DNA from: Peribolospora baueri
Lineage: Eukaryota
Reading direction: 5' to 3'
Assembly: GCA_029717555.1 (NCBI GenBank)
Contig: JAMDHS010000003.1
Coordinates: forward strand, 186,001 to 250,000
Length of the DNA stretch: 64,000 bases
How positions within the stretch are numbered: the first letter of the stretch is position 1; each line of letters starts with the position of its first letter. The translations under genes and the position numbers were made by a program. The notes beneath the pieces were generated by a model, which saw nothing but the letters and a program-made list of their open reading frames with translations, ran no database searches and was not told where the DNA came from. Of the stretch, positions 14,906 through 60,166 are shown piece by piece.

Positions 14906-17039
14906 CTACGTACAGCAGCATGTCGAAACCGCGCCTAGCCCTACCAAGGCGGCTACGCAGATGCCCAATCCATATTGCGTAGCGGAGCTTGTGGAGAATG
15001 AATTCGCCAGCGACTTCGATGGAGGCGGCGGTCGGGCGACGTTGGCGGTCAACTCGGTCCAGATGACCGGGAAGATGACGACGCAGGCCGTGTAAAAGAC
15101 GAGCACTGATCGCCAGAGGAGGGAGGGGTAGGAAAGGACGGAGGGGCGGCGCATCACTGTTGCTGGACGTGACGATAATGGGTGAGGTTTGCCTGTCGTC
15201 GCGCAAGTTGGAGACTGTGACGACGTGAGGACGGGCCGAGGGTGTGTGAAGAGGGCGTAGATGGCGTAGACGGCTACGGCGAAGAAGTGGGAGACGAGGA
15301 GCAGCGGGCTGGGCGCAAGACTGGTCGCGAGGATGCGACGAAAAAAGCGTGAGTAGGAGCGAGAGGGAATTTCCCACACGACGGGAGCGAAGGTAAACAT
15401 GAGAAGAGAATCGCGCTCACCCGGAGAGCAGCCTTATCGGCCCTCCAACGCACTCGCCGCCGAGCTCAAAGTACTTGAAGCAGCCTTCTCGGAGAACCTC
15501 GAGGTTCTCGTCTTTGATACGGGCGCGGCGAAAAAGGAGCGCGTTCAGCACCGTTGTCCTACCCTAGGTAGCGGCAAGATGCGACAGACTGTCTCACTCA
15601 CCGTCGGCACCGAAAAGGCTGTACAGAGCCTGAGCAAGAATATTGATGACGCTGCTGAGCCGTTTCCGTTTCCAGTGCCATTGCGCCAGTTTGGGTCGGA
15701 GAGCGCGCCAGTCGAGGAGGTCGGGCGTGTTGGAGGGTCGAAGGATGTCGGTGAGGAAGACGCAATCGGAGAGACCGACGGACATGCCCCCTGGCATAAA
15801 AGAAAGGGCAGAGCGAATCAGCGCCGGGTCACACCTGGGCTGCACAAAAAGAAGAGGATGAACGCACCTCCGGTGAGAGGATGGCGCATGTTCATCGCAT
15901 CGCCCACGACGATCACGCCCTCCTTGCTCTTTCCCTGCATACTCGGAGGCAAGAACGAGTTGGGCATACTCCGTAGTCGGTTGTTCTCCAAGGCGTCCAA
16001 AACAGAGGCATGCAGGGCGGATGGCAACCCCGGCACGACGTTCCTCTGGATGTAGGCCTGCGAATGCGAGCAAGAGATGAGGCGCGACCCTTTACTTTAA
16101 TGAGATAATCCCGCGTGCGATCCTAGCAAGCGAAAGAACGGGATAAAGGGTATGACAGATTGGTGGCTAACTCACCTTGAGATCCCCGTTCCCTGCGCTG
16201 GGCAACTTGCCGGGCACGTCCATCAATATCCGGGTATCCCTCTGTCCGATTTGATAGAGTAAAACGGGGCCAGGCCCTCCCAAGATGACGTGACCGTGCC
16301 GAGGGGCGGGGAGAGGCGCGTCCTTGAGGACGAGGCCGACAAAGTTGGACCGCACGGTGGGCTTGAGAGAACCGAGCTTAGAGCGGAATGAAGAGAAGCA
16401 GCCGTCGGCGACGATCGTGACGGAGGCGAGGTGGGTGGACGTAGTAGACGAGGTCTCCGTGGCCGCAGGAGCCGAAGACGGAGAAGGGACATTGCTCCTG
16501 ACTACCGCACCCAGAACCCGTCCGGTTTGTGGGTCCTCCACGAGCTCTTTGACAGTACCCTCAAGCCACTCGACGCTAACGCACGCCTTTGCCCGATCTC
16601 TCAACGCCATGACAAACTTGCCATGGTGGAAGCTCCTCCCCTCCCGGAGGCCGCTGCAGCTCTTCACGCCTGTACCTTTCTCCTCGTCCGTCTCGACGGG
16701 GTATCGGATGGGAACGGCCCTGCCCTGATAGAAGCACTGATACCCCTCCACGGGCACGGCGTCGATCCCCTCCAAACAGTCGAGCAGTCCGAGCTTTCGC
16801 AGCGCGCGAACGCCGCCCGGTTGAAGGAGCTCTCCTACGATGCGGTCCGGCTCGGAGAAGTTGCGCTCGACGAGGAGGACGCGCAGGCCGGCGTGGCCGA
16901 GCGAGTGGGCGAGCGCGGAGCCCACGACGCCGGCGCCGACGATGAGAATGTCGTGCGAGGCAGTCATCGGAGGAGGAGTCGGGGTGGTGGTGGTGACGAC
17001 GAGGGCCGCTTGCTTGACGACCTTCCGTGCCCTTTCCAT
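14906..17039 (-). CDS. ERG1: Squalene epoxidase (monooxygenase); start at 17039 or 16967
   Basis: FAD motif DILIVGAGVVG; EPDRIVGELLQPGG; EGRSFHHGKFV; TIVADGCFS; GPVLLYQIG; LRSMPNSFLP; GDAMNMRHPLTGGGM; WHWKRK...VINILAQALYSLF; CFKYFELGG; HFFAVAVYAI; FYTACVVIFP. Confidence 0.95.
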
Positions 17040-23052: not shown

Positions 23053-25337
23053 ACAGACAGACAGACAGACAGACAGACAGACGCCTTTGCACAAAAAAGC
23101 TCAAAGCTCCAGCCGACGTAAAACGCAGGCCCCCACTCCGTCCGCGCTCGTCGCCCCGGCGCGTCGCGACACGGTGCCGGGCCACGTGGGTCCGCCGCGC
23201 ACGCTCGTATACCTCCGCGCCGGCGAGAACAGAACAGAGCAGAGCAGAGCAGACAAGGCGACGGACGGGGCACAGAGGAGACCAAGACCGTGCCGTGGGG
23301 GACGAAGGGAGCGGAACGGGGACGGGCAGCGCGCGCACGCATCGATCGTCCGCATCTATCTCCACCTCGCTCGCCGTTGGCCCCGATCCAGCACCGCCAC
23401 GGCCACGCTTGGTCGCCGTCGTGGGCGGATCCTTTGTCGAAGGTCCGACCATGCTGTCGCCAGTTCCAGGTAGGTAGGTAGGTAGGTAGGTGTACCTCCT
23501 GTGGTCCGGCCAGCTACACCATCCTTTTCCGTTCCCTCTCCTAAGAGAACGCGGGGAGGAGGGACGAAAGAAGCAAGCGATGGACGACGACGTCGTCGAC
23601 CACAAGACCCGTCCGGCGTCCAAGACGCCCAAGGCCATACCATACCGCCCCGACGGTGTGCTCCCTTTCCGACTCCGTCCCACGCCGGCGCACGCTCGGA
23701 AATCCAACCCAGTTCCACGTCACGTCGACTACCACTCCACTCCGCCTTCGAGTGCGGTGAGGACGACTACGACGGACCCGTCTGAACCGAACCGAACCGA
23801 ACCGAGAAAAAAACGAGCCGAGCCTAGCCAAGCGACTTGACTCACCGCGAAGAAAGAAGAGAGGAAGGAAAAGCAGCGAGAAAAGGAATAGAAGGGAAGG
23901 GAAGGAAGCGTGTGATCCTTCTGCCTCGTCCTGTCTCGTCTCGTGTCGTCTGTCGATGGCGGCCGAGGGCGGTACGAGTCCGCCCTTTCCTTCACGGCGA
24001 GCCTTCACAGCGACGGAGCGCGAGCGAGGAGTCGGATTCGGGGATGGATGAGCAGGCGAGAAGGAAGGGAAGAAAGAAGGGGAGTAGGAGAGGAGGGGAT
24101 GGAGATGAGATGGAGATGGAGATGGAGATGGAGAGGAGATGGAGATGGAGGAGGAAGGGAGGCTTCTTTCTGTTCTCGCAGTGACGCCTGCCCGTTGGTC
24201 GCTGTATGTAAGTAGTTTGATACCAGGCCAGGGTCAGGGCGACGGGGCGATGCCGTGCCGTGTCCTTGTCGACGCCATGCCATGCCCCATGCCATGCCAT
24301 GGCCCTTGGCGATCGACGGAGGAAGGAAAGAAGGAGGAAGACGGGGATGATACAGGGGTGCTAAAGGGGTGCTAAGGGGAAGGCTCGCCTCGGCCGAGGC
24401 AAGGACGGACCGGATGAACGGAGTCGAGCCGAGCCCAGCCCAGCCCAGTCAAGCCAAGCGCATGCGGGGTCACTCTTCGGACTGCGGCTGACTGCGGCAA
24501 GCTGCGTCCGCCCACGCGGCGCGCCCGGCTAGCTAGCGCCTCCCCCTCGTCCTCCCGTCCTCCTCACCTGGCCCCTTCCTGGCCCCTTCCCCCTTGCCAC
24601 GCTCAAGCAAGCCGCGCGCCTCATGCTCCTGCTTGCGATCGATGCCCGAACACGCTCGCCCTTCCTTCGCTCGCAGCCGACCTTACCTTGTCTTTGTCTT
24701 TGTCTTTTGTTTTTCTTTTTCTTTCGCCCACTCTTGTCGGCTTAACACTCGCACGTATATGCAGATAGATAGATGCACGCGACCGCCGTCCAGCCATCCA
24801 TCCCTCCTCTCCACCCTCGACACGACAGAGTTGCCACCTCTTACTACCGTATCTAGTGCGTCGCTAGCAATGTGTACAAGGAAAGAAAGCGCCGCTACCA
24901 ACGTGTGCGGAAAAGATAGCGTCGCCGCTTCTACCGTCGCTTACCACTGGTCACAGCAGCGGCATGAGCGTTAGACCGACCTCCGTCGTCATTGTCTTTC
25001 ATTCTCGTTTGTCCCATCCCCGGCAAGCGCGAGTTTGAGTTTCTATTTCGCGACTATGTGTGTGTGTATATATATATATATATATACAAGCGATGGATGG
25101 CCGAGCCGAGCACGGTCTGTGCGCGGTAGACGGCGTCGAACATTATCCTCTCCGCCTCTGTCGCTCGGAAGGCAAGCAACGAGCGAGACAGCGAGCGGTC
25201 GCGTGACGGCGCGCCGAGCGACGGGTCACCCCTTCCCATGGCGCCACGATGGCGAACCTCGTCGTCCGTCGATCGAGCGAGCTCATATCTATGTCTGTTT
25301 GTACTAGACCGGAGACGGCCTATCTATATTCACGCTC

Positions 25338-44953: not shown

Positions 44954-45715
44954 GCGTACGTATGCATTCGTCCAAGGTCGGTCGTCGCTCGCCTTGTTCG
45001 TTCGTATCGCGCATCTCCGTTCGTGTTCGTCCGTCTATGCAGGGCCGTCGCCAGTCGTCACGTCCGTCGCAATTGTCATATGTCGTGTCCTTACCACAGG
45101 TTCCATGTTGGGGTTAAAAATATGCTTCCCAGTCTTCGATCATCATTGTCACTCTGCCTTCCTTGACGACATGCGACGAGACGGGATAAGATGGCCGTCA
45201 CCGACGATGGCCGACGACGTGATGAGGTTATGTAAAATTATCCCCTACGCCCACCGCCATGAGGAATAGATGATACGAGCTCGACGACAGCGGGTGGTTG
45301 GCTTTGCACGTCGGAAGCACGTGATCTGGCCGTTATCTTGCTGCGGAGATGACCTTGACGAGGGCCGGGATCTGATGAAGAGGCTTCTCGTGGGTCGTCG
45401 CGACCGCCTGAGCATTCACTCTATCATCCTTCGTCCTCGTTCTCGCATTTCGTGTATCGTGTATCGTCTTCGTCAGAGTGTATACCCCACGGCTCTCGCG
45501 CGTTCCTACCTCGGTATATCGACAACAGCCGCCCATCCTCCGGCTTCAGCGGTCAGCGGCTGGGTTATCCAAATCTCCAAAACAGCCCACCTAGCAGTTC
45601 TACGTCAACCTCGACCTTTGATCCTTGCGATCCCCCGCCTTGACCTAGGCGCCTGGCTTCCAAACTTCTACGGATCGACGTCGCGTGGCTGGGCCCATCG
45701 TCGCGACCGAATACC

Positions 45716-48700
45716 ATGGCGACTCCAGGTCCCCCCGGTTCGCCCTTGGGGGGCAATTACCTCCTTCCGGAAGCCGACATCGCGAGCAAGACGCACAGCC
45801 GCAACAGTTCGACTTCCAGTGCCGGCTCGGGCAGCACAGACGTGTTCGTCAACGGTCCGTGGCACGCCAACGACCCGAGTCCGGACGTCGTCATCTCCGC
45901 CTCCACGTCTCGACGACGAGGCTCGTCTCCGACCGAAGGTCTGACGTTTCGCAGTGGCGGTTCGAGGGAAAGCTTTTCAGAGGCCGCTCGAAGCGCCGTG
46001 TTTGTGCAACAGGATGACAACGGCTCGGCCATCCACTCTTCCCTGTCCCCTTCCGCTCTCGGCTTCCGGTCTGCTTCCTTCGATGCACCCATGTCCTCCT
46101 TTGACCCGCACGAACAGGCACATTGGGTCAACACTGGCGGTTCCTCCGACGCTTTGCACGCCCAGGTGGTCGATGAAAGCGACACCGCCATTCTCACCAG
46201 CAACCAGACCGAGGCGGGCTACGATCGACTCGGTCGTTCGCGCTCTCATGGCAGAGGGAACCACAATCATGTCGAGGCCGGTAATTACGCTGCCGACTCG
46301 CCTGTACACAGGAGGCAATCCCGGAGGACCTCGCGCGACTGGGACGCTACTGCACCAGGCCTTCAACGAGCGCGGAGCGGCATCTCCCGTGTCTCCAGGA
46401 GCATCCGAAGGGCTAGCATACGCGTGGTGAACATCCGGGGCGAGGAGAGCACGAGCGAGCTGCCTCTAAGCGCAGGCCAGGATGAGGTCGTCCTCGCCGA
46501 CGCGTACGATGGCCAGGACGAGGGCGATGACTATAGACTTAGGGAGGCGCGAGCGTTGGCCGGCCTGAGGGGCAAGTCGTTGGGCGTGTTTGGACCGGAT
46601 AGTAAGCTGAGGAAGGCTTTGGCTAAGGTCTTGGTGAACAGGTCAGTCGAAGGTTTTGTTTGGTGTTTCCTTGGGTCTCGTTGCAAATCTTCCTAACGCT
46701 GCATCACTCCATTCCATGGCAGCTGGACGGAGCCTATCATCCTCGCCCTAATCATTGCCGACGTGATCGTACTCACCATCCAGTCCGCTAAGTCGGTCTT
46801 CAACCAGCCGCGGAAACCCGGCTACTTCAATTACTGGGAAGACTATGCTCTTTTCGTCCTCTTCATTTTTTTCACGTGAGTCATTGCGCAGATCTACCGG
46901 CAGCCGTCCAATCGGATCTGAATGGAACTGCTTGCCTTCCCGCCTTCAGGATCGAAATTGTGGCGCGCATTATTGTAGGCGGTCTCTTTGTCAATCCAGG
47001 ACAGGAGCACCTGGCGCCGGCTGGCCTGGAAGACCCGGATTCACCCACAGAGGTCCAATCCGATCACTTAAACTTCTCTTCCAAGCTTAAGGCAAAGGCC
47101 GCAGCCGTTTTGCGGCCCTCGCCTTCATTGTCCGAAAAGGTGTCCGACTTCTCTCCCAAATCGCCTTCGCGTTTGAGGTCGTCGTTCGCCGGCAAAAGTC
47201 GACAGAATAGGGCGCCACCTCGACTCACTATCAACACATCTACGACTGACTTGTTGGACCATCCGACGCCCGGCCAGAACGTGACCAAGACAGCTACGGT
47301 TCGCACCGCGGGCACCTTCTTCTCTTTGAACGAGGCCCCCTTCAAAGAAGCCATCTCCCGCCAACGATCCCAGGCCACCCAGTCCGCCTTCCTCCGCCAT
47401 TCGTGGAACCGCTTGGATCTCATCGCCGTCGTCTCCTTCTGGATCATGTTTATCTTGGCCATCCTCCGTCTCGAGTCGACGCCCAACGCTCACATCTATA
47501 TCTTCCGAGCGCTCAGCGTGCTCAGATCTACTAGGCTGCTGACGATCACCAGCGGAACAGCCGTGCGTTCGTTTCCTCCCGCCCCCCGCATTCAACCACC
47601 ACGCGCACAAGGCATGCTCATCACTGCTTTCTCTTCTGCCATTCTGCCAGACCATTCTCAAGTCCCTGAAACGCGCAGGACCCATGCTCGTCAACGTGGC
47701 CTTCTTCGTGGTCTTCTCAATGGCCCTGTTCAGGTGGGTCCATGTGATATCGTTCTCGGAAAGCAGCAGGTGGTGGGGAACTGTCGTCTCACCTTTTCCT
47801 TCCTACCCTCAGCATCATCGGCGTCCAGAGCTTTCAGGGCTCGTACCGAAGATGTTGTATGTGGATAGGTGAGGTGTCCTCGAACTTTGTGTCACGCCAC
47901 GTCTCAGAGACTGACCTCATCGAATGTAACCACATCGCTCACAGACCCGGCTGGCGTGAACAACTATACGTTCAGCCAGTTATGCGGCGGCCATGTCAAT
48001 AACGTCACGGGCGATTTGGAGGGATACGTGTCTCAGGATGGAATGGTATTGTCGGATACGGCTAAGGGATTCATCTGTCCTGCCGGACAGCTCTGCGTGG
48101 TGCGTTGCGTTGCTGTGTCGTGGTGTGGCGACGACGACGTTTCGCGACGCCATTGAGCGCGGCCGAGGTTGGGGCCCGCTGACTCGTCGGTCATTGTCCA
48201 CGTTCACGTCGCGTCCTCTCGACGCTTACAGGAGCAAAACAACCCGCAAAGTGGCACGCAGAGCTTCGACAACGTCTTTGCAGCATTGATGCAGGTCGTT
48301 ATTCTCGTTTCCGGTGAGTTGATTGGAACGCCTAGGATGCGCTCGTGTTAAAGTGGCGGCACTGATGATTTTCCCCTTCGATCTCTCGTGTGGGGAACAT
48401 TTTCGCTCTCGCGCTCGCTTGTTCCATTGAACAGTCAATACGTGGTCGGTAGTGATGTACAACATGATGGACGCGGATTACTTCGTCTCGTGCCTCTACT
48501 TCATCTTCGGTGTCCTCATCCTCAACTTATGGATGATGAATCTCTTCGTCGCCGTCATTAACAACACCTTTGCTAACATTCTGGACGAGACCAAGCAGAG
48601 CGCTTTCGCGGCCGTAAAGTGAGTACAGGCACTTCCATTCGGCTTTCCATGAGGGACTGCAGCTGATATTTATTCCTTAATACGGCAACTCAGGGTCGAG

Positions 48701-51700
48701 ACGGTGGTAGCCGAAATGGGGGGCATGGAGGAAGAACCTCGCAAGTCTCGTCAGAGCGTCTTCAAGAAGTGGTTTGATCGAACGCACTACCTATGGATCA
48801 TCGCCATCGTAGCTGACATCGGAACTCAAGCTGCGAAGTACTCCACCATGTCCCCGGGCTATGGCTATGCTTTGGGTGAGTGAGGGCTTGCAGAGATCAT
48901 GATTTATTTTATTCTGGATCTCGATTTGTTTGACGGTATTTCTTTCTTTTGCCTTCAGATCAAGCCGAATTGTACTTCACGATCGCTTTCGACATCGAGA
49001 TCATGCTCCGGTTCTTCACCTACCTCCCGGATTACCGAACCTTCTTCAGGAACAAGCGCAACTACACGGACCTTTTCCTTGCCATCGTCACCATCATTTT
49101 GCAGATCCCCGCCATTCACGACACGGAGGTTTACAATTGGCTCACGATCTTCCAAATCGCGAGGTTCTACCGCGTCATCTTGGCCATTCCGCGCATGCAG
49201 CGCTTACTGGTGGGCCTCTGCGATATGTCGCCGCTTTCCCGAATCAGTCCAATGGGTCGAGTCGCTCATCATCGGCAATGTCCTTCCCTACCAGGCACGT
49301 ACGCTGGGGAGAATTGCGGGTCTGCTCAACATGATCTTATTCGTGCTCATGATGGTGTTCATCGCGTCCCTGATTGTGAGCGTGCTGTTGTTTGCGGTCA
49401 TTCCCATCGGCAATGTCTCACGCGGTTTTGTTTCCTCAGGCGGTCCAATTGCTGCGAGGTGATATTTCCGCAAGCAGCGGTAGTAACAACGTCGAGATCA
49501 ACTTCAAACAGATTTACAACTCTTTCCTAGGGATGTACCAGGTAAGGCGCTATTTTCTGGCCCCCCTCGCCTGCCATCTTGCGTCTCAACCCATCCTTCC
49601 ACACCTTATCAACAGCTCTTCTCCTCGGAGAACTGGACGGAAGTCCTTTATGCAGCGCTCATCGCGGAGCTGCCGTTCAAGCAGGCCATAATCACGGGCA
49701 TCTTCCTATGCGTGTGGATCCTCTTTGGCTACTGTGAGTTTGGCCGCGTTCTGGATGACGGCCTGTGGGTTATAATGATAACGGGGATGCTTCGACGCCG
49801 CTGCCACAGTCATCATGCTCCAGATGTTCATTGGTGTTATCAACGAGAACCTCATGCTCGCTGAAGAGACGAAAAGGAAAAAGCAGCTAGAAGAGTTCGA
49901 AAGAAAGGCGCAGCCTCCGTCCGCATCCAAGAGCTGGATATTCAAGTACAACATCTACAACTACCTCAAACCGAAGCGCTCCGACGGGGAGAGGACGATT
50001 CCAGCGCCCCTGTCGCGTCGTCCGACGTTGTCTCGCAAAGCTTCGGTCATGCGACACTATCAGGAAATTAGTGAGGACGACCGATGGGCAGTGAGTAGAA
50101 AGAGGACAGGTGGAAAGTCATCCTTTCTCATGTTGGATGATTTACTGCTGACCACCCAGGTTTCCATTCCGCCGTCGATTTGAACAGAAGCGCAACTCGC
50201 TCCACGATGTCACCGCTCCGACTCTGTACGACTCGGTCGGCGGGTACGTAAGCAATCTCTGGCACGTCCGCCATGGAAGCGAGAGCATCCCCTTGCATGA
50301 AATGCGAGGGCCGAATGACCCCAACGACGCGTCCGGGGATATCGGAGCAATTGAACAGGAGCTGTGAGTTGTCGTCCGTTGCTGCCGTTCGCATCGTCCA
50401 TATGACTCATTCTGAGATCCCATCAATGACAGCGACCGCATGCGCCCCGAGAACTGGGGCGCTGAGCGGAGAGAGGACAAGGTGAACGAGCGCCGCGCCG
50501 AGCAGGTCAAATTCATCGCTGCCCATCCCAGCTACGATACTTCGCTCTTCATTTTCCGACAAGGCCACCCGATCCGCAAATTCTGCCAGCGGTTTGTCCC
50601 TCCGTCCTACGGTGAGCGCATCTACGGCGAGGCGCCTTCGCCGTTGTTACACGCGCTCTTCCAGGTATCCATATTCCTGGCCATCGCTGGCAGTGTTACC
50701 GTTGCCGCTATCGCCACGCCGCTTTACCGACGCGACTATTACCAACGGTACGGCCTGATCCGCGGCTCGTGGTTCTCAGTGACCGAGATCTCGCTTGGCC
50801 TCTTCTTCGTGCTTGAATTTTTGGTCAAGGTCATTGCCGACGGGCTCATCTTCACACCCAATGCATACCTACTTAGCATTTGGAACGGCCTTGACTTCTT
50901 CGTGCTCGTCACGCTGTTGATCAACGTCAGCTCGGAGCTTGTCGTCATCGGCGGTATGAGCAGTTTCACGCGAGGTCTCAAGGCGTTTCGTGCTTTGCGC
51001 CTTATCAACCTCTCCTCTCGTATGCGAGAAACGTTCCATGCCGTCATGATCGCCGGATTCGGTCGTCTCTTTGACGCCTCCACGCTCGCCGTCCTCTATA
51101 TCATCCCCTACGTGAGTCGTTCCGTTCCACTGATACCACTTTGGCGTCGATTGACGGTCTTATCTGTCCCTTTCGCAGGCCGTTTGGGGTCTCAACATCT
51201 TCTCTGGGCTGCTCTACTCGTGCAACGATGGAAGCAACTCTATTCAGACCAAATACGACTGTATCAATGAGTTCTCATCTCAGCCTCTGCAGTGGAACTT
51301 CCTCGCACCTCGGTCTTGGGCCAACCCTACCCAGGGCACGGTGTACAGCTTCGACGACTTCAAAGCCTCCCTTTTGGTCTTGTTCGAGATTATCTCTCTG
51401 GAAGGCTGGATCAATGTCATGACAACGGCCATGAGCGTCGCCGGCTTGGACCAACAACTCACTCCGGACGCGTCCCAAATCAACGCGATCTTCTTCGTCT
51501 TCTACAACCTCCTCGGCGCCTCCGTCATCCTTGCGCTCTTCGTCTCCCTCATCATCGAGAACTTCCAGACTCGCTCAGGTCTGGCTTTCTTGACGACGGA
51601 GCAGCGACAGTGGATTGACTTGAGGAAGCTAATCATCCGCCAGCGACCTCCCAAACGTCCCAAAGTCCGTCCTGGGACCCCATTTACGGCGTGGTGCTAC

Positions 51701-54151
51701 GACCGGGCCGTACAGAAGCACGGCTGGTGGTCGCGTAGCATGACGGTGCTCTACTTTATACACATCATCGTTCTCATGACCCAACGTTTCGGAGACCCTG
51801 CTTGGGCAAATACTTTGCGAGGTGGGTTGCTTGGTCCTTCGCAGCCCTGTTTCGTGGTTCCAACTCGCTGTCGGCTCACCACGGCGTTTCCTTTTGACCA
51901 TACCCACAGACTACGTTTTCCTCGGATTTACTCTCGTCTACCTCGTTGACATCATCGTTCGCATGATCGGCCTCGAATGGCGCAACTTCCGACAAAATGG
52001 ATGGAACATATACGACATTATTGTGGTGACGGGCACGCTGGTGACCACCATTCCGATCCTCACCGGCGGCGAGAACTTTGTCAGCACCCAGCTACAGAAG
52101 CTCTTCCTCGTGAGCATCGCCTTTAAGTTGGTCCAGAAGAACAATGGCCTGAACCAGCTTTTCAAGACGGCCGTGTAAGCACGTGTTCCTTTGGAATCGC
52201 GCCTGGTATCTTTACAAAATTCATGTTCGACTCGTGTTCTCTTCGCTTCGTCGCCCTTACAGTGCCAGCCTGCCGTCGATCATCAGCCTTTTCATTCTAT
52301 GGTTCACCATGTTCCTCGTCTGGGGCCTTTTTATGGTCGAAATCTTTGGCCTCACCAAGTGGGGTAGCAACGAAACGCACAACATCAACTTTTCTTCCTT
52401 TCCTCGCGCTCTCGTATTCCTTGTGATGATGACGACTGGGTGAGTTGGGCTGACCCTACATTCTCGGTTAATCCTCGCACACACGATACGCCATTGCTCA
52501 TGGCTTGCCCTATTCGTATTGATCCTATGCCATCTTGCGAGCAGTGAGGGCTGGAACGGGTTCATGCACGACTACACACTCTCGGGCGATCTGTGCACGC
52601 AGTCCTCGAGCTATCTCGACTCCGATTGCGGCAGCCAAGGCTGGGCGTATGTGCTGTTCATCACATGGAACGTCATCTCGATGTACATCTTCGTCAACAT
52701 GTTCACGGGTACGGTGGTGGAGAACTTTTCGTACGTGTACAACCTCGGCGGTAAACCTGCGCTGTCTCGCGAGCAGATGAGGCAGTTCAAGAAGGTCTGG
52801 GTCGAGTTCGACAAGGAGCGCAACGGCTATATTCACCGTCAACATTTTGTCCCCTTCTTTGCGGTTAGTCCCTCTGTCTTTTTCACCCGTTCAAGGCTCG
52901 AGTCTGACCAGCACTCTGCTTCTCCCTTCGCCTCTTAGAAATTGACCGGAGTGTTTGATGTCAAGGTCTATCCCACCGAGTTCAGCGTTCCGAACTTGCT
53001 CAAGGCCGCGTCCATCACAGCGACAGGGCCTTCCAGTCCAATGCCGAGTCCGTCACATAGCCCGATCGGATCTGTTATGTCGAAGAGCATCATCGTCGAC
53101 GGCGTGGACGTGCGCAGACTGAGAAGGGCGGTGGCCAAGATCGACTCCGCGCGGATCGCGCGACGGAAGGAGACATACATCCGTCTCCTCCACGAGGCCC
53201 TCATTTCCGAAGAACCCGGGAGAGGTATCTCTTTTACCAACATGCTGTTCCTGCTTGTCCATTATAAACTCATCGATGACGAAAGGGCATTGCAGTCAGT
53301 ATTTTTTTTCTCCATACTTACCGTCGTTCATATTATTCGTTGTGGATGGCCCTAACATTGTGTCTCGCCCCGTCTCACCTCTTCAGACTCGGAGAACTGC
53401 ATAGGCGGAGACAGAAACTGGCTCGGGTGGAGGAATTGGTAAACTTGGACCGCCTTCGAGGTTTCCTGCGGACCATGGTCCTTCGCCGCCGTTTTGAGCA
53501 GTTGAGGCGGGAGAGGCACTCGAAAGGTCAGTGTTCATGCCAGCCTCACGTTCTCTCTTTCTTTACCCCTACGCGTCGATCAATTCGCTCAACTAGCTTT
53601 TGTTCCCTTCCCGGACGCCGGTTCCTTTCCTTCAGTGCCACAAATCCTGATCGATGCTCAAGAAGGAGGCGAAGGAGAGCGTCTGTTGCATTCGCCCACG
53701 CCATCGATCACCTCTTCTCTCACCCTCGAAGGCCAGGGCAAGCTGAGTCTCACCTTGACACCGCCTTCAGTAGAGACCTTCGTTGATAGGGACGGATACT
53801 TTGACGATATGAGCCGAGGCAGACCTCGTTCGCCAGGGTAAGCTAGCCGTCTCGTTGCCCTAGTTCCATACTCCTTACTGCCTTGCTCTACAGGGGACAT
53901 CTGATGAAGACTGACGGAGACGTATTCACTATTCATCCTCTATTCAACCGCGTTTTTCAACCGAATTCAATAGTTCATCCTCTGAGCGCAGCCTCTCCCC
54001 CTCTACCCCTACACGTTCCTCCCCTACGCAACATCAAGCCTGGGACCGTGTCCTTGGACGGCTGGACCGAGACAGTATGGATAGTGGCCGTGGCACCGGC
54101 GACGAGAGCGGGAGAGACAGAGGACGGGCAGAGTCTCAGCGGCCCTCGTGA
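45716..54151 (+). CDS. CCH1: Four-domain (24-TM) high-affinity Ca2+ channel Cch1
   Basis: [31 protein letters not shown]...[93 protein letters not shown]; pore ring N-E-E-E. Confidence 0.95.
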
Positions 54152-54719
54152 TGATCACCTTCTGTGACAGGAATTTCTTCCAGACTTAGGGATCGAGTTA
54201 AGGCTCACTGGTAGTGATCTCGCATACCCGGGGCAGTGAACGAGATGAAGCAATACAAGATGTACAGCACGACCACGGCGCCCCAAATGTTAGTCACAAG
54301 CCTTGAAAATCGGGCAGAGGCATGCGAACATTAGGCAGGAAGGGCAGGGATAGCCGGCTTCTGAGATGGAATGTGCATTCTGACAGCACGTGTAGAGTAA
54401 CTGCCCCACCTTCGACCTTCCATGCCATCTCTTCGTTACGGACTTTAGCGTTCCTTTGCCTTCTCTTCCTCAGTTATATGCTTGGATGCTGTGTAGACGT
54501 ATTCGAGAAGACATATCGCACTTTTGCTGACGGTTTCATGTCCTGCATCGGATCGGACATATGGACGCATCCCTCGCTGACACTTTGGGATGAACGACTC
54601 GTCCAGGCTACAAGCAAGGCGGCGTCACTGGTTGCCTCAGTGCGTCTGTGAATTGGACCACAGGACGGGCCGAGAATGGAAACACGGGCAGACGTCGAGA
54701 AACGAAAGATAGAGAGGCT

Positions 54720-57700
54720 TCACTCCCGCTCAGCCTCAACGTCCACCACTTTTACTTCCGAGGAGCTCGTCTCCTCTACTTTCCCCTCCTTCAGGCTCAC
54801 GTCCGCGTCCCCTTCCTTTATGCCCAGATTCGCCGTCTGCTTCTCCAGGTCGCTTTCCTCTCCCTTCTCCGCCGTCCTGACCGCACCTCTACCTCCGTGT
54901 TCCGGCAGCACCGCGATATCCTGATCCGGCTCGTACGCCTTATCCTCCCACCAGCCCTCCCTCCGCATCCCCTCCTGGGGCCAAACCATGTTCAACGCCC
55001 AGTAGACGATCGCGCTCACCCCGAAGCCGAGGAAGAACGACAGCGTGTACATCCGCTGCGCCGTCAACGGCACCGTGCGGCCCACGGCGCCGGCGAAGCC
55101 GACGATGTTGATGGCGATGCCCGAGATGTAGGCGACGTAGGCTCGCAGGTTGATGCCTGCGAAGAAGAAGTAGGTAGAGTTGCGCGAGGTAGTGTAGAGG
55201 GAAGGTACGTCCAGGTGGCCTCGGCGGATGACGTAGTAGTCCGTCACCATTACCTGCGCGCATGCAGAGCGGAACGAAGGCGAGACGGACAGGATGCAAG
55301 CAGTGGAGGAAGAATTGGTCAGTGCGGGTTCGGAGGGCCAGCGGGGATAAATGAGTGAACCCGCTTCCTTGAAACAGTGCGACTAAATATGAGAACTCAC
55401 TCCGATCTGGACAGGGATGGGACGGGCGAGAAGGACAGCAAGATGCAAGCGGAGACTCAGTCTCCAAAAGGACGCGGTAGTCACAATGGCTGATGATTAG
55501 CTGGCGAACACTTACAACACCTGACGGAAAAAGAGGAGAAAGGGCCGAGAAGAACGCATAAGAGAGATCAGGGCGCTTGGTCTCGGCTTCGTTACGGTAC
55601 GACGTCCCCGTCACTCACTGGACAGGAAGACGCTGTAGCTGCTGAGATACGAGGTGAAGCTGTTGGAGCTTGCGACGAGGTTCCAGGCTGGACACGGTTT
55701 CAGCGGGCAGCGAATGTTGTGAGTTCCGGGGGGCAACAGTCAGGGACCACGGGCATCACACTCACGGCACATGCAAAGGCCAACGATGGCCGCGATGTAG
55801 CCTCCTCGACGGATGTTGACGAAGCGGGGTAGGAGGGCCTGACGAGCGAGATCAGGTTGAGCCAAGGCAAGCTCGAAGGTCAAAGGAATGGTCTCTGGCT
55901 ACACGCAGTTTCGTGGTAGCAGTCCGGACCAACTCACCGTGAGGTCGCTGTTGCAGTAGGAACCGGACGTCCGAACACGTTCGCGTCAGTGCATCCATCA
56001 GAAAGGGTACGTGTGCGAGGGAAAATCGCAGACGACGAAGGGGCCCCACACACCTGCCAGCGGATATGGAGTTTGCTGCAATGTTGACGCCTATTTGGGC
56101 CAGGACGAAAGCGGTCGAGATGCTTCAAGGAGCGAGCAAGGGGAGTGGTTTGCATACGAGACAGAACGACGGTGCAAGGTAGACGGAGAACGGATGACGG
56201 GGAATGAGCGTTAACGTCTACCTAGCCCAAAAGCGGCTTGGCAAGCGGAAGTGTCTTCCATGAAATACAACAACAATGTGAATGCACCAGGAACACTCAC
56301 AAGAAGACGCCGCATCGGGCTTTCGAATTGTACGGGTCGTCGTCCAGTCTTGAAGGGCAAGGTAGAACAGGAACGGGTCAGGCGAGAGGAGAGCATTTGG
56401 CAGAACGAGGGAGGGGAGAGTCAGCTTGGTATCTCTCTGACATCGGAACAGAATACAAACCAGGACGCGAGAAGATAGGAAGCACCGGTCCACGAAGAAA
56501 GAACGCACTCACTTTCTTCCGAGGAGTTCCAGAGGGCTCCAGATGTTCTCTCCGTAAATGGTCGTGGCGGAGGAGGAGACGATGATTCCTGCGATCGAGC
56601 ACGAGCATGTGAGTCGCAAGATCCTGGGTGCCCGAGCAAGAACCCAAAGTTCACGAAGGACGGCCCAAGCTCGCTCCGCTCACCGACGAAGGTGGTCAAG
56701 CTGAAGGTGACGGGAATGGAGATAAGCTGTGAGGCGACCATGTCCTTAGGCCGTGTGGCGAAGCGTGTGAAGTCTGTCCGCCCATTAGGAAGTGCGTCCA
56801 TGGCAGAAGAGGAGGGACAATAGACCAACGGGACGAGAGGATACGACGTCAATAAACCGAAGCTGGAACGGACGGAGGGACATGCAGAAGAGAAGTCGGC
56901 ACTTTCATCGATTAGAGAACATTTCCAGCATCTCACCTGGCGCATTGGTAGCAAGCGTAGCAAAGTTGGAAATGCAGCTCATGACGGAGCTAACGAATTG
57001 CCAAGCGAGCTCATTGCCCTTTATGGTGGCGGGCTGTTTGACGATGGGACCCACGCCGTGAGCGTCTGCAATGGACCAGGCGAAAAAGGCCACTGCTGCT
57101 ACGGGTACCACGATCGTCTTGACCATGAAGAAATGACGGATTTGGTGTACCGGGAACCAGATCGCTGGGAGGGAGACGAGCCAGAAAAGGAAGAAGCCGA
57201 CCTTAATGTGATCGGGAGATGAAGTCGACGTCAGTGGTAGGTGGCGCTCGCCGATGTACGTTGGACGACATGGATGGCTCACAAAATCCCTGGTGTTCGT
57301 CCCACTAGAAATGGGCATGGTATTGGGCAGACGGTTGAAGCTCGGCCAGATGGAGCGGAGCACCAATGTCATACATTGGCCACCGATCCACGATTGCACT
57401 CCATACCAGCTATCGAAGGGCAGGGGTAGAGTGGCGAGAAAGAAGGAAGTCGTACATTGGCAATTAATCAATTGGTCCGGTTAAGTGGACCGCTCAGGGC
57501 ATGATGTGCTAGCCAGAGTGAAGAGTAAAAAACACGTGTACTCACATGCAAGCCATGGCAGCCCTATTCAGAACGGGCCAAAGCGCGCCCCAGATTCCGA
57601 AAGATGAGCGGATTTGAACTGGGAAGCCTACGTGCCAAACTGCGCCCGGTCGTCCGTTGGCGATCACAAACCAGCTGACAATGGTGTAGCCTACAATGAC

Positions 57701-58370
57701 GGCGAGCCATGCTTGCCACCAGGACTATGGGTGACCAGAAAAAAGAGAGGACGTGATGAACGAAGGTGAGCAGATTGAGGACGTTGAGAGCCAGCGTGGT
57801 CGTGAAGATGCATGCGTTGAAGGGAAGATGACACCAACCATTCCGGCCTGAATCATGCTGCTAGAGATCATCCTGTGAGGAACAGAAAATATTCAGAGCA
57901 ATAATTCCTGGTCAGTCGTCCGGTTGCCATTCAACCCCGAAGAAAGCGTCTTGAGCAAATGCGGGGAAAGCGCGTGAGACCATAGCCTCTCGCTCCTCCG
58001 TCGCCCTTTTCCGTGGCGGAAACAACGGACTCGTCGCCCGAGGACGAGAAAAAAAGACTTGCCAAGTGTTGATGTTGAAAGAATCTGACACCCAGAAGAA
58101 GACTGCATGGTAGACACAGACAGGCAAGGAACGTTCGGTCGACGGAGGGCCTTGGGACGTGTCGGCACAAAACCCCTGCACCTGCCAGTCGCCGTGGGGC
58201 CTCGACCACCCACCAAAGCTCCTCGCACTCCACTTCCTGCGTCCCTTCTCGACGGGCAGGAGGTCATGGTTGGCGAGCAAGAGCCGATTCCGAGAGAGAC
58301 CTTGAGACCCCGGCACGGAGACGAAGTCGAGGACCTTTTGGGCCGGTTCGCGAAAGGTAAAGGTCGGCAT
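54720..58370 (-). CDS. NCS1 family (Fur4/Dal4-type) uracil/allantoin/hydantoin permease, highly fragmented into exons
   Basis: LANHDLLPV...RKWS; [112 protein letters not shown]. Confidence 0.92.
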
Positions 58371-58675
58371 TCTGAAAAAGGGGGGAAACGGGATAGAGAA
58401 GGAAAAAGGCGGGAGGACAGGAGGAGGAGGGAAGGAGGATGGGCCGAGGTGAGAAACTGGCCTTGGTGGGGCCTTGCTCTGCCCTTTCTATGTGTTTGGG
58501 CTTCCCCGTCTTCCTTCCTCCTTCGTCCCTGGCCCTGACTGGGGAAGCAGCGGGACTAGACTAGATTGTTACGCATTACCCATGAAGAAGGCGGTGCGAG
58601 AGCGCCACCTGGGCGCGGACGCCATGATATCAGGTTAAGTTCGACATGGAGGGCTGACTTGACTGGCCGGCGGCA

Positions 58676-58695
58676 AGCGATAAGCCCTTATCGCT
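58676..58695. promoter_or_regulatory. Inverted pair of GATAAG (nitrogen catabolite repression type) sites
   Basis: AGCGATAAG-CC-CTTATCGCT, a perfect 9-bp inverted repeat in the divergent promoter; TGATATCA also at 58625-58632. Confidence 0.6.
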
Positions 58696-59197
58696 CGCCC
58701 TGCTGCGGCGAGAGGGGTCAGACAAGATCCGACCGAGGTAGGCGAACTCAGCTGGCACTTGATCTCATTTTGGGGTGTGCGGTCGTTTGAGGACGGTCGC
58801 TGCCCAGCCATGGTGAGGAACGAGGGCGGAGCAGGTGATCACTCTCTTGCACTCTTTGTTCTCTTTCTTGCCTTTACTTGCGTCGCTTCTTCAGTCTCGA
58901 GTACCCAGCGGCGCAACCCTCTCGGAAGGGGGGAAAGAGGGTGGGGACAGTAAAGGCGGAAGAAGATGCCGATGGCGTGGGTCTTCGCATTTGCGACGAC
59001 CCTTTAGAGGCCGCCGTAAACATGAGACGGTCTTGCTTAACGCCTTCCTTCTCCCTCCCTGGCGCACCAAGTGAGTTCAGGAGCAGACCCGCCCTCCAGT
59101 CTCCTCGCTAAGACCACCCCGGAACAACGGGCAAGCAGACCAGCAACTCGCTCTGCTCTTCCAGTCGACTACCCCACCACAATCGCAGACCTATGCC

Positions 59198-60166
59198 ATG
59201 CATCACATCCTCTTCATAAACCCCAACTCGTCCGCTTCGCTCACCCAGGAGCTCGAGCGCAACCTCAAATCTCCAAAGCTCGGCCTGACAGCGACGACGC
59301 GCGCGGAGGACGTGGAAATAGACTTCTACACCGCTCCCGCGCCTTCGCCTTCTAGCATTGATGGGCCCGAGCAAGCGGAAAAGAGCTCCGACGTCGTCTT
59401 GGCCGCTTTCGGATTCGCGACCAGCGCAAGCGACGGTGAAGACGGCACCATGACGGTCATCGACGGCGTCCGAATCGCCCAAGCCCAGCTTCCCCGCCCA
59501 CTGAGGGAGTACGAAGCGATCATAGTCGCCTGCTACTCTCCTCACCCACTCGTCCCTTCTTTGCGCTCCCGTCTTTCGTCCCCGTCAGCCGCCCCGCCAG
59601 TGCGCGTCCCGCACGTCCTGGGCATCTTCGAATCCTCTATCGGCGCGGCCTTGCGATCGGGAGGGACGTTTGGCATCGTAACTACCGGCAAGCAATGGGA
59701 GCCTGTGCTGCTCGACGGCGCGCGGAAGGTTATGACGGACATGGGAGCGACGGCGTCGGATGGGAGCAAGGCCGGATGCGTGGGCGTGAGAGGCAGTGGA
59801 GTGGGAGTGCTGGATCTGGTGTCCGACGAGGCGGAGCCGGCAGACTCGGACAGCCAGACTGAACAGGGACGGAACCCGTCTTTACCCGGTAGCACCGACG
59901 TACGCCCACCGACGTCGATGCTGACCGCCTCGCTCGACCTCGTCCTGCATGCGCATGCAGAGGTCATCGTCGTAGGCTGTGCCGGCATGTCTCCCGTCGC
60001 CGAGCCTCTGGAGAAGGCCATCCAGTCTTCCCTTCAGGACGCAAGTCAAGACAATGCGCGCGATGAGAGAGGCGGAGGCGAGCCGCGCCGCGTACCGGTC
60101 GTGGACGGGGTCAAGGCGGCGATCGAGTGGGCGGTCGAGTTGGTAAAGGGAGAGGAGAGTAAGTAG
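59198..60166 (+). CDS. DCG1: Asp/Glu/hydantoin racemase family protein (allantoin racemase, Dcg1-like)
   Basis: ILFINPNSSASLT; APSSIDG; AIIVACYSPHPLV (Cys1); VLGIFESSI; FGIVTTG; VIVVGCAGM (Cys2); VPVVDGVKAA. Single coding exon. Confidence 0.85.
   Translation: MHHILFINPNSSASLTQELERNLKSPKLGLTATTRAEDVEIDFYTAPAPSPSSIDGPEQAEKSSDVVLAAFGFATSASDGEDGTMTVIDGVRIAQAQLPRPLREYEAIIVACYSPHPLVPSLRSRLSSPSAAPPVRVPHVLGIFESSIGAALRSGGTFGIVTTGKQWEPVLLDGARKVMTDMGATASDGSKAGCVGVRGSGVGVLDLVSDEAEPADSDSQTEQGRNPSLPGSTDVRPPTSMLTASLDLVLHAHAEVIVVGCAGMSPVAEPLEKAIQSSLQDASQDNARDERGGGEPRRVPVVDGVKAAIEWAVELVKGEESK

What the first reader, a model, noticed from the sequence alone, without database searches (positions are those of the whole stretch)
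54720..60166. Divergent NCS1 permease and allantoin/hydantoin racemase: candidate two-gene nitrogen-scavenging module
Seen: a Fur4/Dal4-type transporter (minus) and a two-Cys Dcg1-like racemase (plus) sit head-to-head 827 bp apart among unrelated housekeeping genes (CCH1, ISA2). Known: DAL4 and DCG1 are both in the Saccharomyces DAL cluster, bacterial hydantoin operons pair NCS1 permeases with racemases, and allantoinase is enantioselective, so environmental racemic allantoin benefits from a racemase. Inference: an independently assembled import-and-racemise module in a basidiomycete-like fungus. No allantoinase or hydantoinase lies in this window.
Basis: partly seen in the sequence, partly recalled or inferred. 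Interest (0 to 1): 0.72.

Follow-up and report, generated by a model that had tools for sequence, protein, structure and literature searches.

The report
Fungal permease–racemase gene pair
Two intact fungal genes, a nucleobase/allantoin-family importer and an allantoin-racemase-like enzyme, sit head-to-head and may work together to scavenge nitrogen, but only their adjacency is shown so far.

Summary
A 16-exon Fur-type NCS1 permease (minus strand, ATG 58370, stop 54720, 593 aa) and a single-exon 322-aa PF01177 racemase (59198-60166, plus) are divergent, with 827 bp between their start codons. Both look intact. The racemase keeps both catalytic cysteines, and its nearest solved relatives by sequence profile and by fold are bacterial allantoin racemases.

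For it:
- The same two families lie together in a complete yeast DAL cluster that I recovered (L073).
- They are adjacent in 4 of 9 sampled bacterial plasmid-collection loci.
- The shared promoter holds a rare 20-bp palindrome made of two inverted GATAAG sites.

Against it:
- 0 of 79 other fungal racemase loci carry an NCS1 or any DAL gene.
- No allantoin-catabolic gene lies in the 64-kb window.
- The permease cannot be told apart from uracil-type Fur permeases, because DAL4 is a yeast-specific duplicate of FUR4.
- No expression data or host genome were available.

I put a functional import-and-racemise pair at about 0.5 and chance adjacency at about 0.4. Both genes descend from fungal lineages, not from a bacterial operon. 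This is a new member of a known kind, of modest interest.

The parts
54720..58370 (-). Fur-type NCS1 permease gene, 16 exons, 593 aa. Exons: 58370-58214, 58102-58063, 57872-57839, 57724-57546, 57409-57283, 57201-56937, 56773-56684, 56588-56513, 56348-56301, 56122-56054, 55947-55938, 55838-55766, 55687-55619, 55520-55516, 55406-55401, 55253-54720 (stop included).
   Evidence: PF02133 hits on exons. TIGR00800 NCS1 hits on exons. The spliced model gives a single open frame with canonical splice sites. It is 57-59.5% identical over aa ~12-568 to Agaricomycete NCS1/'uracil permease' proteins. No gap columns at any of the 15 junctions, and 12 hydrophobic peaks.
57873..58062 (-). Intron 2, a GC-AG intron (donor GCAAGT), 190 nt
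   Evidence: No GT donor gave an in-frame, homologue-like junction. The GCAAGT donor restores the conserved NINTW|MISS junction, with 11 of 12 flanking residues identical to P0084.
55938..55947 (-). 10-nt micro-exon (encodes S-DLT of the TMS8-9 region)
   Evidence: Single-intron solutions gave only aberrant insertions. The micro-exon with CAG|...|GTGAGT sites gives a gap-free match to homologues.
55516..55520 (-). 5-nt micro-exon
   Evidence: flanked by CAG and GTAAGT, and needed to keep the frame and the homologue's length.
55401..55406 (-). 6-nt micro-exon
   Evidence: flanked by CAG and GTGAGT.
58371..59197 (.). 827-bp divergent intergenic region (putative shared promoter)
   Evidence: Sequence read; bounded by the two start codons.
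58676..58695 (.). 20-bp perfect palindrome with 9-bp arms and a 2-bp spacer; each arm holds a GATAAG core (two inverted GATA sites). Candidate GATA-factor site.
   Evidence: HGATAR hits at 58678 (+) and 58688 (-). It is one of only 3 distinct perfect inverted repeats with arms of at least 9 bp and spacer of at most 4 bp in 64 kb, against about 1.9 per 64 kb in Markov simulations. A regulatory role is inferred, not shown.
59198..60166 (+). Dcg1/allantoin-racemase-like Asp/Glu/hydantoin racemase gene, single exon, 322 aa
   Evidence: PF01177, E 5.3e-28. 197.5 bits against a profile of 19 fungal homologues; no in-frame intron removal adds more than about 7 bits. AlphaFold2 mean pLDDT 84.4. Best fold matches are allantoin racemases 5lfd and 3qvj.
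59531..59533 (+). Codon of catalytic Cys112 (ACYSPHP motif)
   Evidence: Invariant column in A1 and A2. It aligns with the Cys that is Ser in the K. pneumoniae mutant structure 3qvk but Cys in 3qvj.
59978..59980 (+). Codon of catalytic Cys261 (GCAGM motif)
   Evidence: Invariant column in A1 and A2. It aligns with LGCGGM in 3qvj and LGSGGM in 3qvk.

Best explanation
The permease and the racemase form a small nitrogen-scavenging pair transcribed from one 827-bp bidirectional promoter. The Fur-type NCS1 proton symporter imports allantoin, or a closely related 5-substituted hydantoin or ureide. The cytosolic two-cysteine racemase interconverts the R and S forms, so that an S-specific hydrolase encoded elsewhere can use all of it.

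Shown: both genes are intact, their families, both catalytic cysteines, the allantoin-racemase-like fold, the divergent layout, and a rare GATA palindrome between them.

Inferred: co-regulation, the substrate, cytosolic location (the protein starts directly at the first conserved strand and ends in ESK), and the existence of a downstream allantoinase in the unseen genome.
For: 1. The same two families are linked where allantoin use is established or annotated. L073 is a full yeast DAL cluster holding DCG1 and DAL4.
2. In 4 of 9 sampled plasmid-collection loci, an NCS1 gene lies within 1 kb of the racemase. In Moraxella (H10) it is divergent at 242 bp. In Klebsiella (H4) it is divergent at about 900 bp. 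In Paracoccus (H8) and Leisingera (H9) it is co-directional.
3. The racemase is closest to solved allantoin racemases. The fungal-only profile A2 scores 5lfd at E 5.6e-27 and 3qvj at 8e-22, against 7e-6 for the Pyrococcus hydantoin racemase and 5.7e-5 for OpaE. By fold, 5lfd scores E 2.3e-11 with TM 0.77.
4. Both catalytic Cys are present.
5. The shared promoter holds a 20-bp palindrome of two inverted GATAAG sites, one of 3 such palindromes in 64 kb. Paired GATA sites are the usual targets of fungal nitrogen regulators; that point is established knowledge, recalled.
6. No polyketide or peptide-synthetase context was seen in the window, which argues against an OpaE-like role.
7. Chance adjacency of these two families should be rare, about 0.2% per locus by my own assumption.
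8. Allantoinase stereospecificity and the rationale for a racemase are stated in PMC13751858 (passages read).
Against: - 0 of 79 other fungal racemase loci carry an NCS1 gene, and 0 of 79 carry DAL1, DAL2, DAL3 or DAL7 homologues. Of all 80 loci, 44 have at least 1.5 kb upstream and 44 have at least 1.5 kb downstream.
- The neighbours of the racemase in other fungi are unrelated genes. These are an actin-family gene in 18 loci, an MFS sugar transporter in 10, and a P-type ATPase in L001, L005 and L007.
- 0 of 80 Chloroflexi and cyanobacterial racemase loci have an NCS1.
- No allantoin-catabolic gene lies in the 64-kb window.
- The permease is not specifically Dal4-like (43% against 57-59.5%), and its relatives carry automatic 'uracil permease' names.
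- Even yeast Dcg1 is only a 'probable' allantoin racemase by similarity (PMC13751858; PMC12661438 says OpaE is the only well-characterised fungal member; passages read).
- The count of HGATAR sites is not enriched (2 in 827 bp; 96 in the window against 86 expected). GATA factors also control iron and light responses (recalled).
- No UaY-type CGG-N6-CCG site lies in the intergenic region.
Confidence: 0.5

Rival explanations
1. Chance adjacency. The permease is an ordinary pyrimidine or nucleobase salvage transporter (Fur4/FurD-like). The racemase works independently, for example on allantoin made inside the cell from urate. The short divergent spacer simply reflects a compact fungal genome.
For: Linkage is absent in 79 of 80 fungal racemase loci, and the one exception is the known DAL cluster. 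Racemase neighbours vary between lineages and are housekeeping genes. The permease's nearest relatives are spread over many phyla at similar identity and are auto-named uracil permease. The rest of the window is housekeeping. The scan looked at very many windows, so rare coincidences are expected (inference).
Against: These two families recur together in the yeast DAL cluster and in 4 of 9 sampled bacterial loci. The expected chance rate is low (assumption). The GATA palindrome in the shared spacer is rare.
Confidence: 0.38
2. The racemase is a tailoring epimerase of secondary metabolism, like Aspergillus OpaE, and has nothing to do with the permease.
For: OpaE is the only well-characterised fungal PF01177 enzyme (PMC12661438, passages read). 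OpaE appears among the fold matches (E 1.1e-6).
Against: The fungal profile matches allantoin racemases about 20 orders of magnitude better than OpaE. No synthetase or other biosynthetic-cluster gene was found in the window. The TM-score to OpaE is lower (0.60 against 0.77).
Confidence: 0.04
3. One of the two genes is not functional. Examples are a mis-spliced permease, whose model depends on three micro-exons and a GC-AG intron, or a silent racemase carrying long lineage-specific inserts.
For: The model rests on homology only, as no RNA data could be obtained. The racemase has inserts relative to 240-260-aa homologues, and residues 216-230 have pLDDT below 50.
Against: All 15 introns have canonical sites, the frame is open, and there are no gaps at the junctions. 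All invariant racemase residues are kept. The inserts map to loops.
Confidence: 0.06

Closest known systems
Saccharomyces DAL cluster (DAL4 permease and DCG1 racemase-like gene)
   Same: The same two protein families are linked. I saw this directly in metagenome locus L073, which reads DAL3-DAL7-DCG1-DAL2-DAL4-DAL1. The window racemase falls in the same eukaryotic clade as that Dcg1.
   Different: Here there are only two genes, directly divergent, and no allantoinase, allantoicase, ureidoglycolate lyase or malate synthase within 64 kb. The permease is not a DAL4 orthologue, because DAL4 arose from FUR4 inside yeasts (PMC2776167). The racemase is only 26% identical to the L073 Dcg1. The host is Ustilaginomycotina-like by eIF3a.
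Klebsiella hpx locus (hpxA allantoin racemase, hpxC allantoin permease)
   Same: An NCS1 gene lies divergent from an allantoin-racemase homologue about 900 bp away in a K. pneumoniae record. Roles are named in PMC13751858 (passages read). Solved AllR structures are the window racemase's best matches.
   Different: It is bacterial, embedded in a larger purine-catabolic cluster with a regulator and an allantoinase (literature). There is no descent relationship: the window racemase is on the eukaryotic side of a 99% SH-aLRT split.
Plasmid-borne NCS1 + PF01177 racemase + GntR modules (Paracoccus pYEE2, Leisingera pBMJM1_1, Moraxella pSKB0120-1)
   Same: These are minimal transporter-plus-racemase units with no hydrolase directly adjacent. 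The Moraxella pair is head-to-head, 242 bp apart.
   Different: They are prokaryotic, carry an adjacent GntR regulator, and have no tested function. The fungal pair has introns and a eukaryotic promoter.
Aspergillus nidulans Fur transporters (FurA allantoin, FurD uracil, FurE uracil/allantoin/uric acid)
   Same: They belong to the same Fur branch of NCS1. They are proton symporters modelled on the bacterial Mhp1 (bioRxiv 10.1101/2022.03.28.486045, passages read).
   Different: No sequence of these proteins was available here, so no residue-level comparison was made. Specificity in this family is set by few residues and by the termini, so it cannot be read from overall similarity.
OpaE epimerase of Aspergillus ustus
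   Same: A fungal PF01177 enzyme with two catalytic cysteines (PMC12661438).
   Different: It is a far weaker match than the allantoin racemases (5.7e-5 against 5.6e-27), and there is no biosynthetic cluster here.

Membership tests
Asp/Glu/hydantoin racemase superfamily, allantoin/hydantoin (Dcg1/AllR) branch | Pfam PF01177 match above the gathering score | tested here: met
   98.7 bits against a cutoff of 31, E 5.3e-28.
Asp/Glu/hydantoin racemase superfamily, allantoin/hydantoin (Dcg1/AllR) branch | Two catalytic cysteines, one in each half of the protein | tested here: met
   C112 and C261 are invariant in A1 and A2. They align with the positions that are Cys in 3qvj and Ser in the 3qvk mutant.
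Asp/Glu/hydantoin racemase superfamily, allantoin/hydantoin (Dcg1/AllR) branch | Two-domain alpha/beta fold closest to allantoin racemases | tested here: met
   AlphaFold2 mean pLDDT 84.4. Foldseek ranks 5lfd, 5lg5, 3qvj and 3qvk first, at E 2e-11 to 7e-9.
Asp/Glu/hydantoin racemase superfamily, allantoin/hydantoin (Dcg1/AllR) branch | Placement in the eukaryotic Dcg1-like clade | tested here: met
   Quick maximum-likelihood tree of 85 rows: 63 eukaryotic rows, including the window and the L073 Dcg1, are split from 22 prokaryotic rows at 99% SH-aLRT. The window groups with P0001 (a chytrid) and P0002 at 98%. The careful tree search did not finish.
Asp/Glu/hydantoin racemase superfamily, allantoin/hydantoin (Dcg1/AllR) branch | Racemisation of allantoin or 5-substituted hydantoins | not testable with these tools
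   This needs an enzyme assay. It is not shown even for yeast Dcg1 (PMC13751858, PMC12661438).
NCS1 transporters, fungal Fur branch | PF02133 / TIGR00800 domain | tested here: met
   Exon translations hit PF02133 at E 1e-27 and 3e-15 and TIGR00800. Only exon pieces were scanned, because the spliced protein was not handed to the family libraries.
NCS1 transporters, fungal Fur branch | Full-length collinearity with Fur-type permeases and about 12 membrane segments | tested here: met
   57-59.5% identity over aa ~12-568. No junction gaps, and 12 hydrophobic peaks, some overlapping.
NCS1 transporters, fungal Fur branch | Orthology to the allantoin permease Dal4 specifically | tested here: not met
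   43% identity to the L073 Dal4 against 57-59.5% to generic basidiomycete Fur proteins. DAL4 is a yeast-lineage duplicate of FUR4 (PMC2776167).
NCS1 transporters, fungal Fur branch | Allantoin or hydantoin transport | not testable with these tools
   This needs uptake or complementation assays.
Eukaryotic metabolic gene cluster of the DAL type | Pathway enzymes (allantoinase, allantoicase, ureidoglycolate lyase) in the cluster | tested here: not met
   tblastn with the L073 DAL1, DAL2, DAL3 and DAL7 proteins found nothing in the 64-kb window. The Pfam scan found none.
Eukaryotic metabolic gene cluster of the DAL type | Linkage conserved in related genomes | tested here: not met
   0 of 79 non-DAL fungal racemase loci hold an NCS1. 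All are distant relatives and many are short contigs. No close relative or own genome was available.
Eukaryotic metabolic gene cluster of the DAL type | Co-regulation of the members | not testable with these tools
   No RNA run was listed. The only evidence is a candidate GATA palindrome in the shared spacer.
Bacterial NCS1-racemase module (hpxC/hpxA-like) | Descent from a bacterial operon by transfer | tested here: not met
   The racemase is on the eukaryotic side of the tree. The permease has 15 spliceosomal introns and its best hits are fungal.

The most novel reading that the evidence does not exclude
A second, independent birth of a DAL-like linkage in fungi. In an intron-rich Ustilaginomycotina-like basidiomycete, a patchily distributed Dcg1-type racemase came to lie head-to-head with a Fur permease under a shared GATA-palindrome promoter. 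Its nearest relatives are a chytrid protein and an environmental sequence, and no Ustilaginomycotina protein appeared among the 78 hits. The result is a minimal eukaryotic counterpart of the bacterial NCS1-racemase modules. If true, it would be the first genomic-context evidence outside Saccharomycetaceae that fungal Dcg1-like proteins act on imported allantoin or hydantoins.
Probability: 0.35. Interest if true: 0.5.

Novelty: new member of a known kind. Interest (0 to 1): 0.33.

Why it matters
No fungal Dcg1-like protein has a proven activity. The yeast gene is called an allantoin racemase only by similarity and by its place in the DAL cluster. An independent permease-racemase linkage in a distant basidiomycete would strengthen that assignment. 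It would also give a simple two-gene system for testing whether fungi racemise imported allantoin or hydantoins. It would be a further case of convergent clustering of nutrient-scavenging genes in eukaryotes and bacteria. If the adjacency is coincidental, the locus is ordinary.

Tried and rejected
- No whole genome is held for this window.
- RNA runs: no RNA holder listed, so splice junctions and co-expression could not be checked.
- phmmer of the single racemase against PDB sequences found nothing; profiles were needed.
- NCBIfam has no model that matches the racemase.
- Single-intron solutions at three permease junctions failed or gave aberrant inserts. They were replaced by micro-exons and a GC-AG intron. 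An in-frame 'DLARQ' stretch was a decoy.
- In-frame introns inside the racemase ORF were rejected. The best gain was about 7 bits, with poor splice sites.
- No UaY-type CGG-N6-CCG site lies in the spacer.
- HGATAR count is not enriched.
- The bacterial genome scan returned only Chloroflexi and cyanobacterial relatives, with 0 of 80 carrying an NCS1. It therefore does not test proteobacterial hpx or hyu clusters.
- A literature search for 'Mhp1' with 'hydantoin racemase' gave 0 papers. The Microbacterium hyu cluster is cited from memory only.
- French et al. 2011 (PMC3129624) is not held, so allantoin-contact residues could not be checked.
No structure and no whole-protein library scan were therefore made for it.
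- The careful tree search did not finish in time; the quick tree is reported.

Full report
**What is there.** The plus-strand ORF 59198-60166 encodes 322 aa. It matches Pfam PF01177 (Asp/Glu/hydantoin racemase) at E 5.3e-28, 98.7 bits against a cutoff of 31. On the minus strand, several stop-to-stop frames between 54720 and 58370 match PF02133, the NCS1 permease family. The window is eukaryotic and intron-rich, so I built the permease gene by hand from the sequence using tblastn against a full-length homologue.

Three junctions had no single-intron solution. They are resolved by a 10-nt, a 5-nt and a 6-nt micro-exon and by one GC-AG intron with donor GCAAGT. The coordinate-based model has 16 exons and 1782 nt, and gives one open frame of 593 aa. 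It has 14 GT-AG introns and 1 GC-AG intron of 78-190 nt. None of the 15 junctions shows a gap column against P0084, and 4-11 of the 12 flanking residues are identical.

**The racemase.**
- C112 (ACYSPHP) and C261 (GCAGM) are invariant in alignments of 14 and 20 homologues.
- In a profile-to-PDB alignment these two positions coincide with the residues that are Cys in K. pneumoniae allantoin racemase 3qvj and Ser in its mutant 3qvk.
- A profile built from fungal sequences only (A2) scores allantoin racemases far above everything else. It gives 5lfd 5.6e-27 and 3qvj 8e-22. The Pyrococcus hydantoin racemase scores 7.4e-6, OpaE 5.7e-5 and glutamate racemase 4e-4.
- The AlphaFold2 model has mean pLDDT 84.4, with only residues 216-230 below 50. 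Its best Foldseek matches are the same allantoin racemases (E 2.3e-11, target-normalised TM 0.77). OpaE scores 1.1e-6 with TM 0.60.
- The protein is 60-80 aa longer than its relatives because of loop inserts. Removing any in-frame GT-AG segment improves the profile score by at most about 7 bits, so I read it as a single exon.
- Its closest database relative is only 41% identical and comes from a chytrid.

**The permease.**
- The spliced protein aligns over residues ~12-568 with Agaricomycete NCS1 proteins at 57-59.5% identity. It is 43% identical to the Dal4 of the recovered yeast cluster.
- It shows 12 hydrophobic peaks, some overlapping.
- It belongs to the Fur branch, but a Dal4-type assignment is not possible. 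DAL4 was created by duplication of FUR4 within Saccharomycetaceae (PMC2776167, passages read). The window gene can therefore be at most co-orthologous to that whole group.
- Fur-family specificity covers uracil, allantoin, uridine, thiamine and uric acid. It depends on few residues and on the termini (bioRxiv 10.1101/2022.03.28.486045, passages read).

**Surroundings.**
- Upstream (about 45.6-54 kb, plus strand) lies a multi-exon channel gene with Ion_trans and EF-hand hits, consistent with Cch1.
- Downstream, two minus-strand fragments give weak Fe-S_biosyn hits in collinear order (E 0.002 and 0.034, below threshold). An ISA-type gene is therefore plausible.
- The rest of the window holds a proteasome subunit, a SUZ-domain protein, squalene epoxidase, Erv26, a CitMHS transporter, MRP-L46 and eIF3a. 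This comes from one search, which scanned 33 of the 70 ORFs of at least 170 aa listed.
- tblastn with allantoinase, allantoicase, ureidoglycolate lyase and malate synthase from L073 found nothing in the window.
- eIF3a is 71-79% identical to Ustilaginomycotina proteins, ahead of Agaricomycetes at about 60-64%. 'Basidiomycete-like' is therefore right, though no close relative is in the database.

**Is the linkage found elsewhere in fungi?** A scan of metagenome contigs with the fungal racemase alignment gave 80 loci.
- Only one, L073, contains an NCS1 gene.
- L073 turned out to be a complete DAL3-DAL7-DCG1-DAL2-DAL4-DAL1 cluster, which is the known case.
- In the other 79 loci there is no NCS1 and no DAL1, DAL2, DAL3 or DAL7 homologue.
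- Power is limited. Of the 80 loci, 44 have at least 1.5 kb upstream, 33 have at least 2.5 kb upstream, and 59 have at least 1.5 kb on one side or the other. Some loci are near-duplicates, and all are 25-37% identical to the window racemase.
- Recurrent neighbours are an actin-family gene (18 loci) and an MFS sugar transporter (10 loci). In the closest loci the neighbours are a P-type ATPase (L001, L005, L007), CPSF73 (L002) and a phosphoesterase (L004).
- None of these relates to allantoin.

**In prokaryotes.**
- A genome scan with a bacterial racemase alignment returned only Chloroflexi and cyanobacterial loci. 0 of 80 had an NCS1, and 13 of 80 had a DAL1-like amidohydrolase.
- In the plasmid collection the racemase family occurs in 381 records, and I inspected 9 of them.
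- Four have an NCS1 next to the racemase. In K. pneumoniae it is divergent at about 900 bp. In Paracoccus yeei and in Leisingera thetidis it is co-directional with a GntR regulator. In Moraxella osloensis it is divergent at 242 bp with a GntR regulator.
- The other five pair the racemase with different partners. These are ABC transporters with PuuE allantoinase and allantoate amidohydrolase, hydantoinase A/B, an amidohydrolase with a carbon-nitrogen hydrolase, and other genes.

**Origin.** In a quick maximum-likelihood tree of 85 racemases, 63 eukaryotic rows are separated from 22 prokaryotic rows at 99% SH-aLRT. The eukaryotic side includes the window protein and the L073 Dcg1, which sits on a long branch. 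The window protein groups with the chytrid P0001 and the environmental P0002 at 98%, outside the main Dikarya group. None of the named proteins among the 78 racemase hits was from Ustilaginomycotina. That search scores only word-sharing candidates, so absence is not shown. With 15 introns and fungal best hits for the permease, a bacterial operon transfer is excluded. The pair, if functional, was assembled within fungi.

**The spacer.** The 827-bp region holds two HGATAR sites, which is no more than the window average (96 found, 86 expected). However, they form a perfect 20-bp palindrome with 9-bp arms and a 2-bp spacer at 58676-58695. This lies 306 bp from the permease ATG and 503 bp from the racemase ATG. 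Only three distinct perfect inverted repeats of this size exist in the 64 kb, one of them a TA run. Markov simulations give about 1.9 per 64 kb. Paired GATAAG sites are the classic targets of fungal nitrogen-catabolite regulators, but also of iron and light regulators (recalled knowledge). This is a lead, not proof. No CGG-N6-CCG site lies in the spacer.

**Weighing.** Under chance, an NCS1 neighbour for a given racemase gene should occur in roughly 0.2% of genomes. This is my assumption, taking about 6 NCS1 genes in about 7000 genes and two neighbours. The rate of true clustering of this racemase in fungi is also low: 1 of 80 loci, and that one is the known cluster. Depending on that prior (0.3-2%), the odds for a functional pair run from about 1:2 to 4:1. 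The palindrome adds a little. My estimates are:
- about 0.5 for a functional import-and-racemise pair, with allantoin the most likely substrate and other 5-substituted hydantoins possible;
- about 0.38 for coincidence;
- small remainders for an OpaE-like role or a non-functional gene.

**Comparison and novelty.** Both proteins are new, divergent members of known families. The pairing repeats an architecture known from the yeast DAL cluster and from bacterial hpx-type and plasmid modules. It differs in being only two genes, directly head-to-head, in a basidiomycete, and without the catabolic enzymes nearby. It is worth a modest follow-up, mainly because no fungal Dcg1-like enzyme has a demonstrated activity (PMC12661438, PMC13751858, passages read).

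**Limits.** I had no genome, no transcript data, no close relatives, and no characterised Fur sequences. The spliced permease could not be sent to the fold or library tools. The tree is a quick search only.

Noticed in passing
L073:7142-16498: A metagenome contig carries a complete, intron-free yeast DAL cluster in the order ureidoglycolate lyase, malate synthase, racemase, allantoicase, NCS1 permease, allantoinase. It served as a source of genuine Dcg1 and Dal4 sequences.
   Followed up: yes
window 54720-58370 (-): The permease gene has three micro-exons (10, 5 and 6 nt) and one GC-AG intron among its 15 introns. That is an unusually fragmented structure for a lineage whose eIF3a is closest to the generally intron-poor Ustilaginomycotina.
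   Followed up: partly
L163, L164, L165 (plasmid loci): Minimal NCS1 + PF01177 racemase + GntR-regulator units occur on Paracoccus, Leisingera and Moraxella plasmids without an adjacent hydrolase. They have no tested function.
   Followed up: partly
window 59198-60166 and P0001, P0002: The window racemase groups at 98% SH-aLRT with a chytrid (Rhizophlyctis) protein and an environmental sequence, outside the main Dikarya group. None of the named proteins among the 78 hits is from Ustilaginomycotina. The distribution is patchy, and either loss or fungus-to-fungus transfer could explain it.
   Followed up: partly
L008, L011, L020 and 15 further loci; L023, L025 and 8 further loci: In many environmental fungal loci the Dcg1-like gene lies beside an actin-family gene (18 loci) or a tail-to-tail MFS sugar-type transporter (10 loci). 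This is probably clade-level synteny.
   Followed up: partly
L085, L086, L088-L093, L105, L138, L141, L146, L150: 13 of 80 Chloroflexi, cyanobacterial and other bacterial racemase loci have a DAL1-like cyclic amidohydrolase within 8 kb, and none has an NCS1.
   Followed up: no
window 15492-15509 and 25066-25087: These are the two other perfect inverted repeats with arms of at least 9 bp in the window: an 18-bp palindrome and a TA-repeat tract.
   Followed up: no
window 58371-58380 and 59181-59197: Both start codons are preceded by pyrimidine-rich tracts ending in CAG, which look like 3' splice sites. Both genes may have 5'-UTR introns or further upstream exons, which would shorten the true intergenic distance.
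   Followed up: no
window 45644-54300 (+): A large multi-exon Cch1-like calcium-channel gene, with four Ion_trans hits and an EF-hand, ends about 400 bp from the permease's 3' end.
   Followed up: partly
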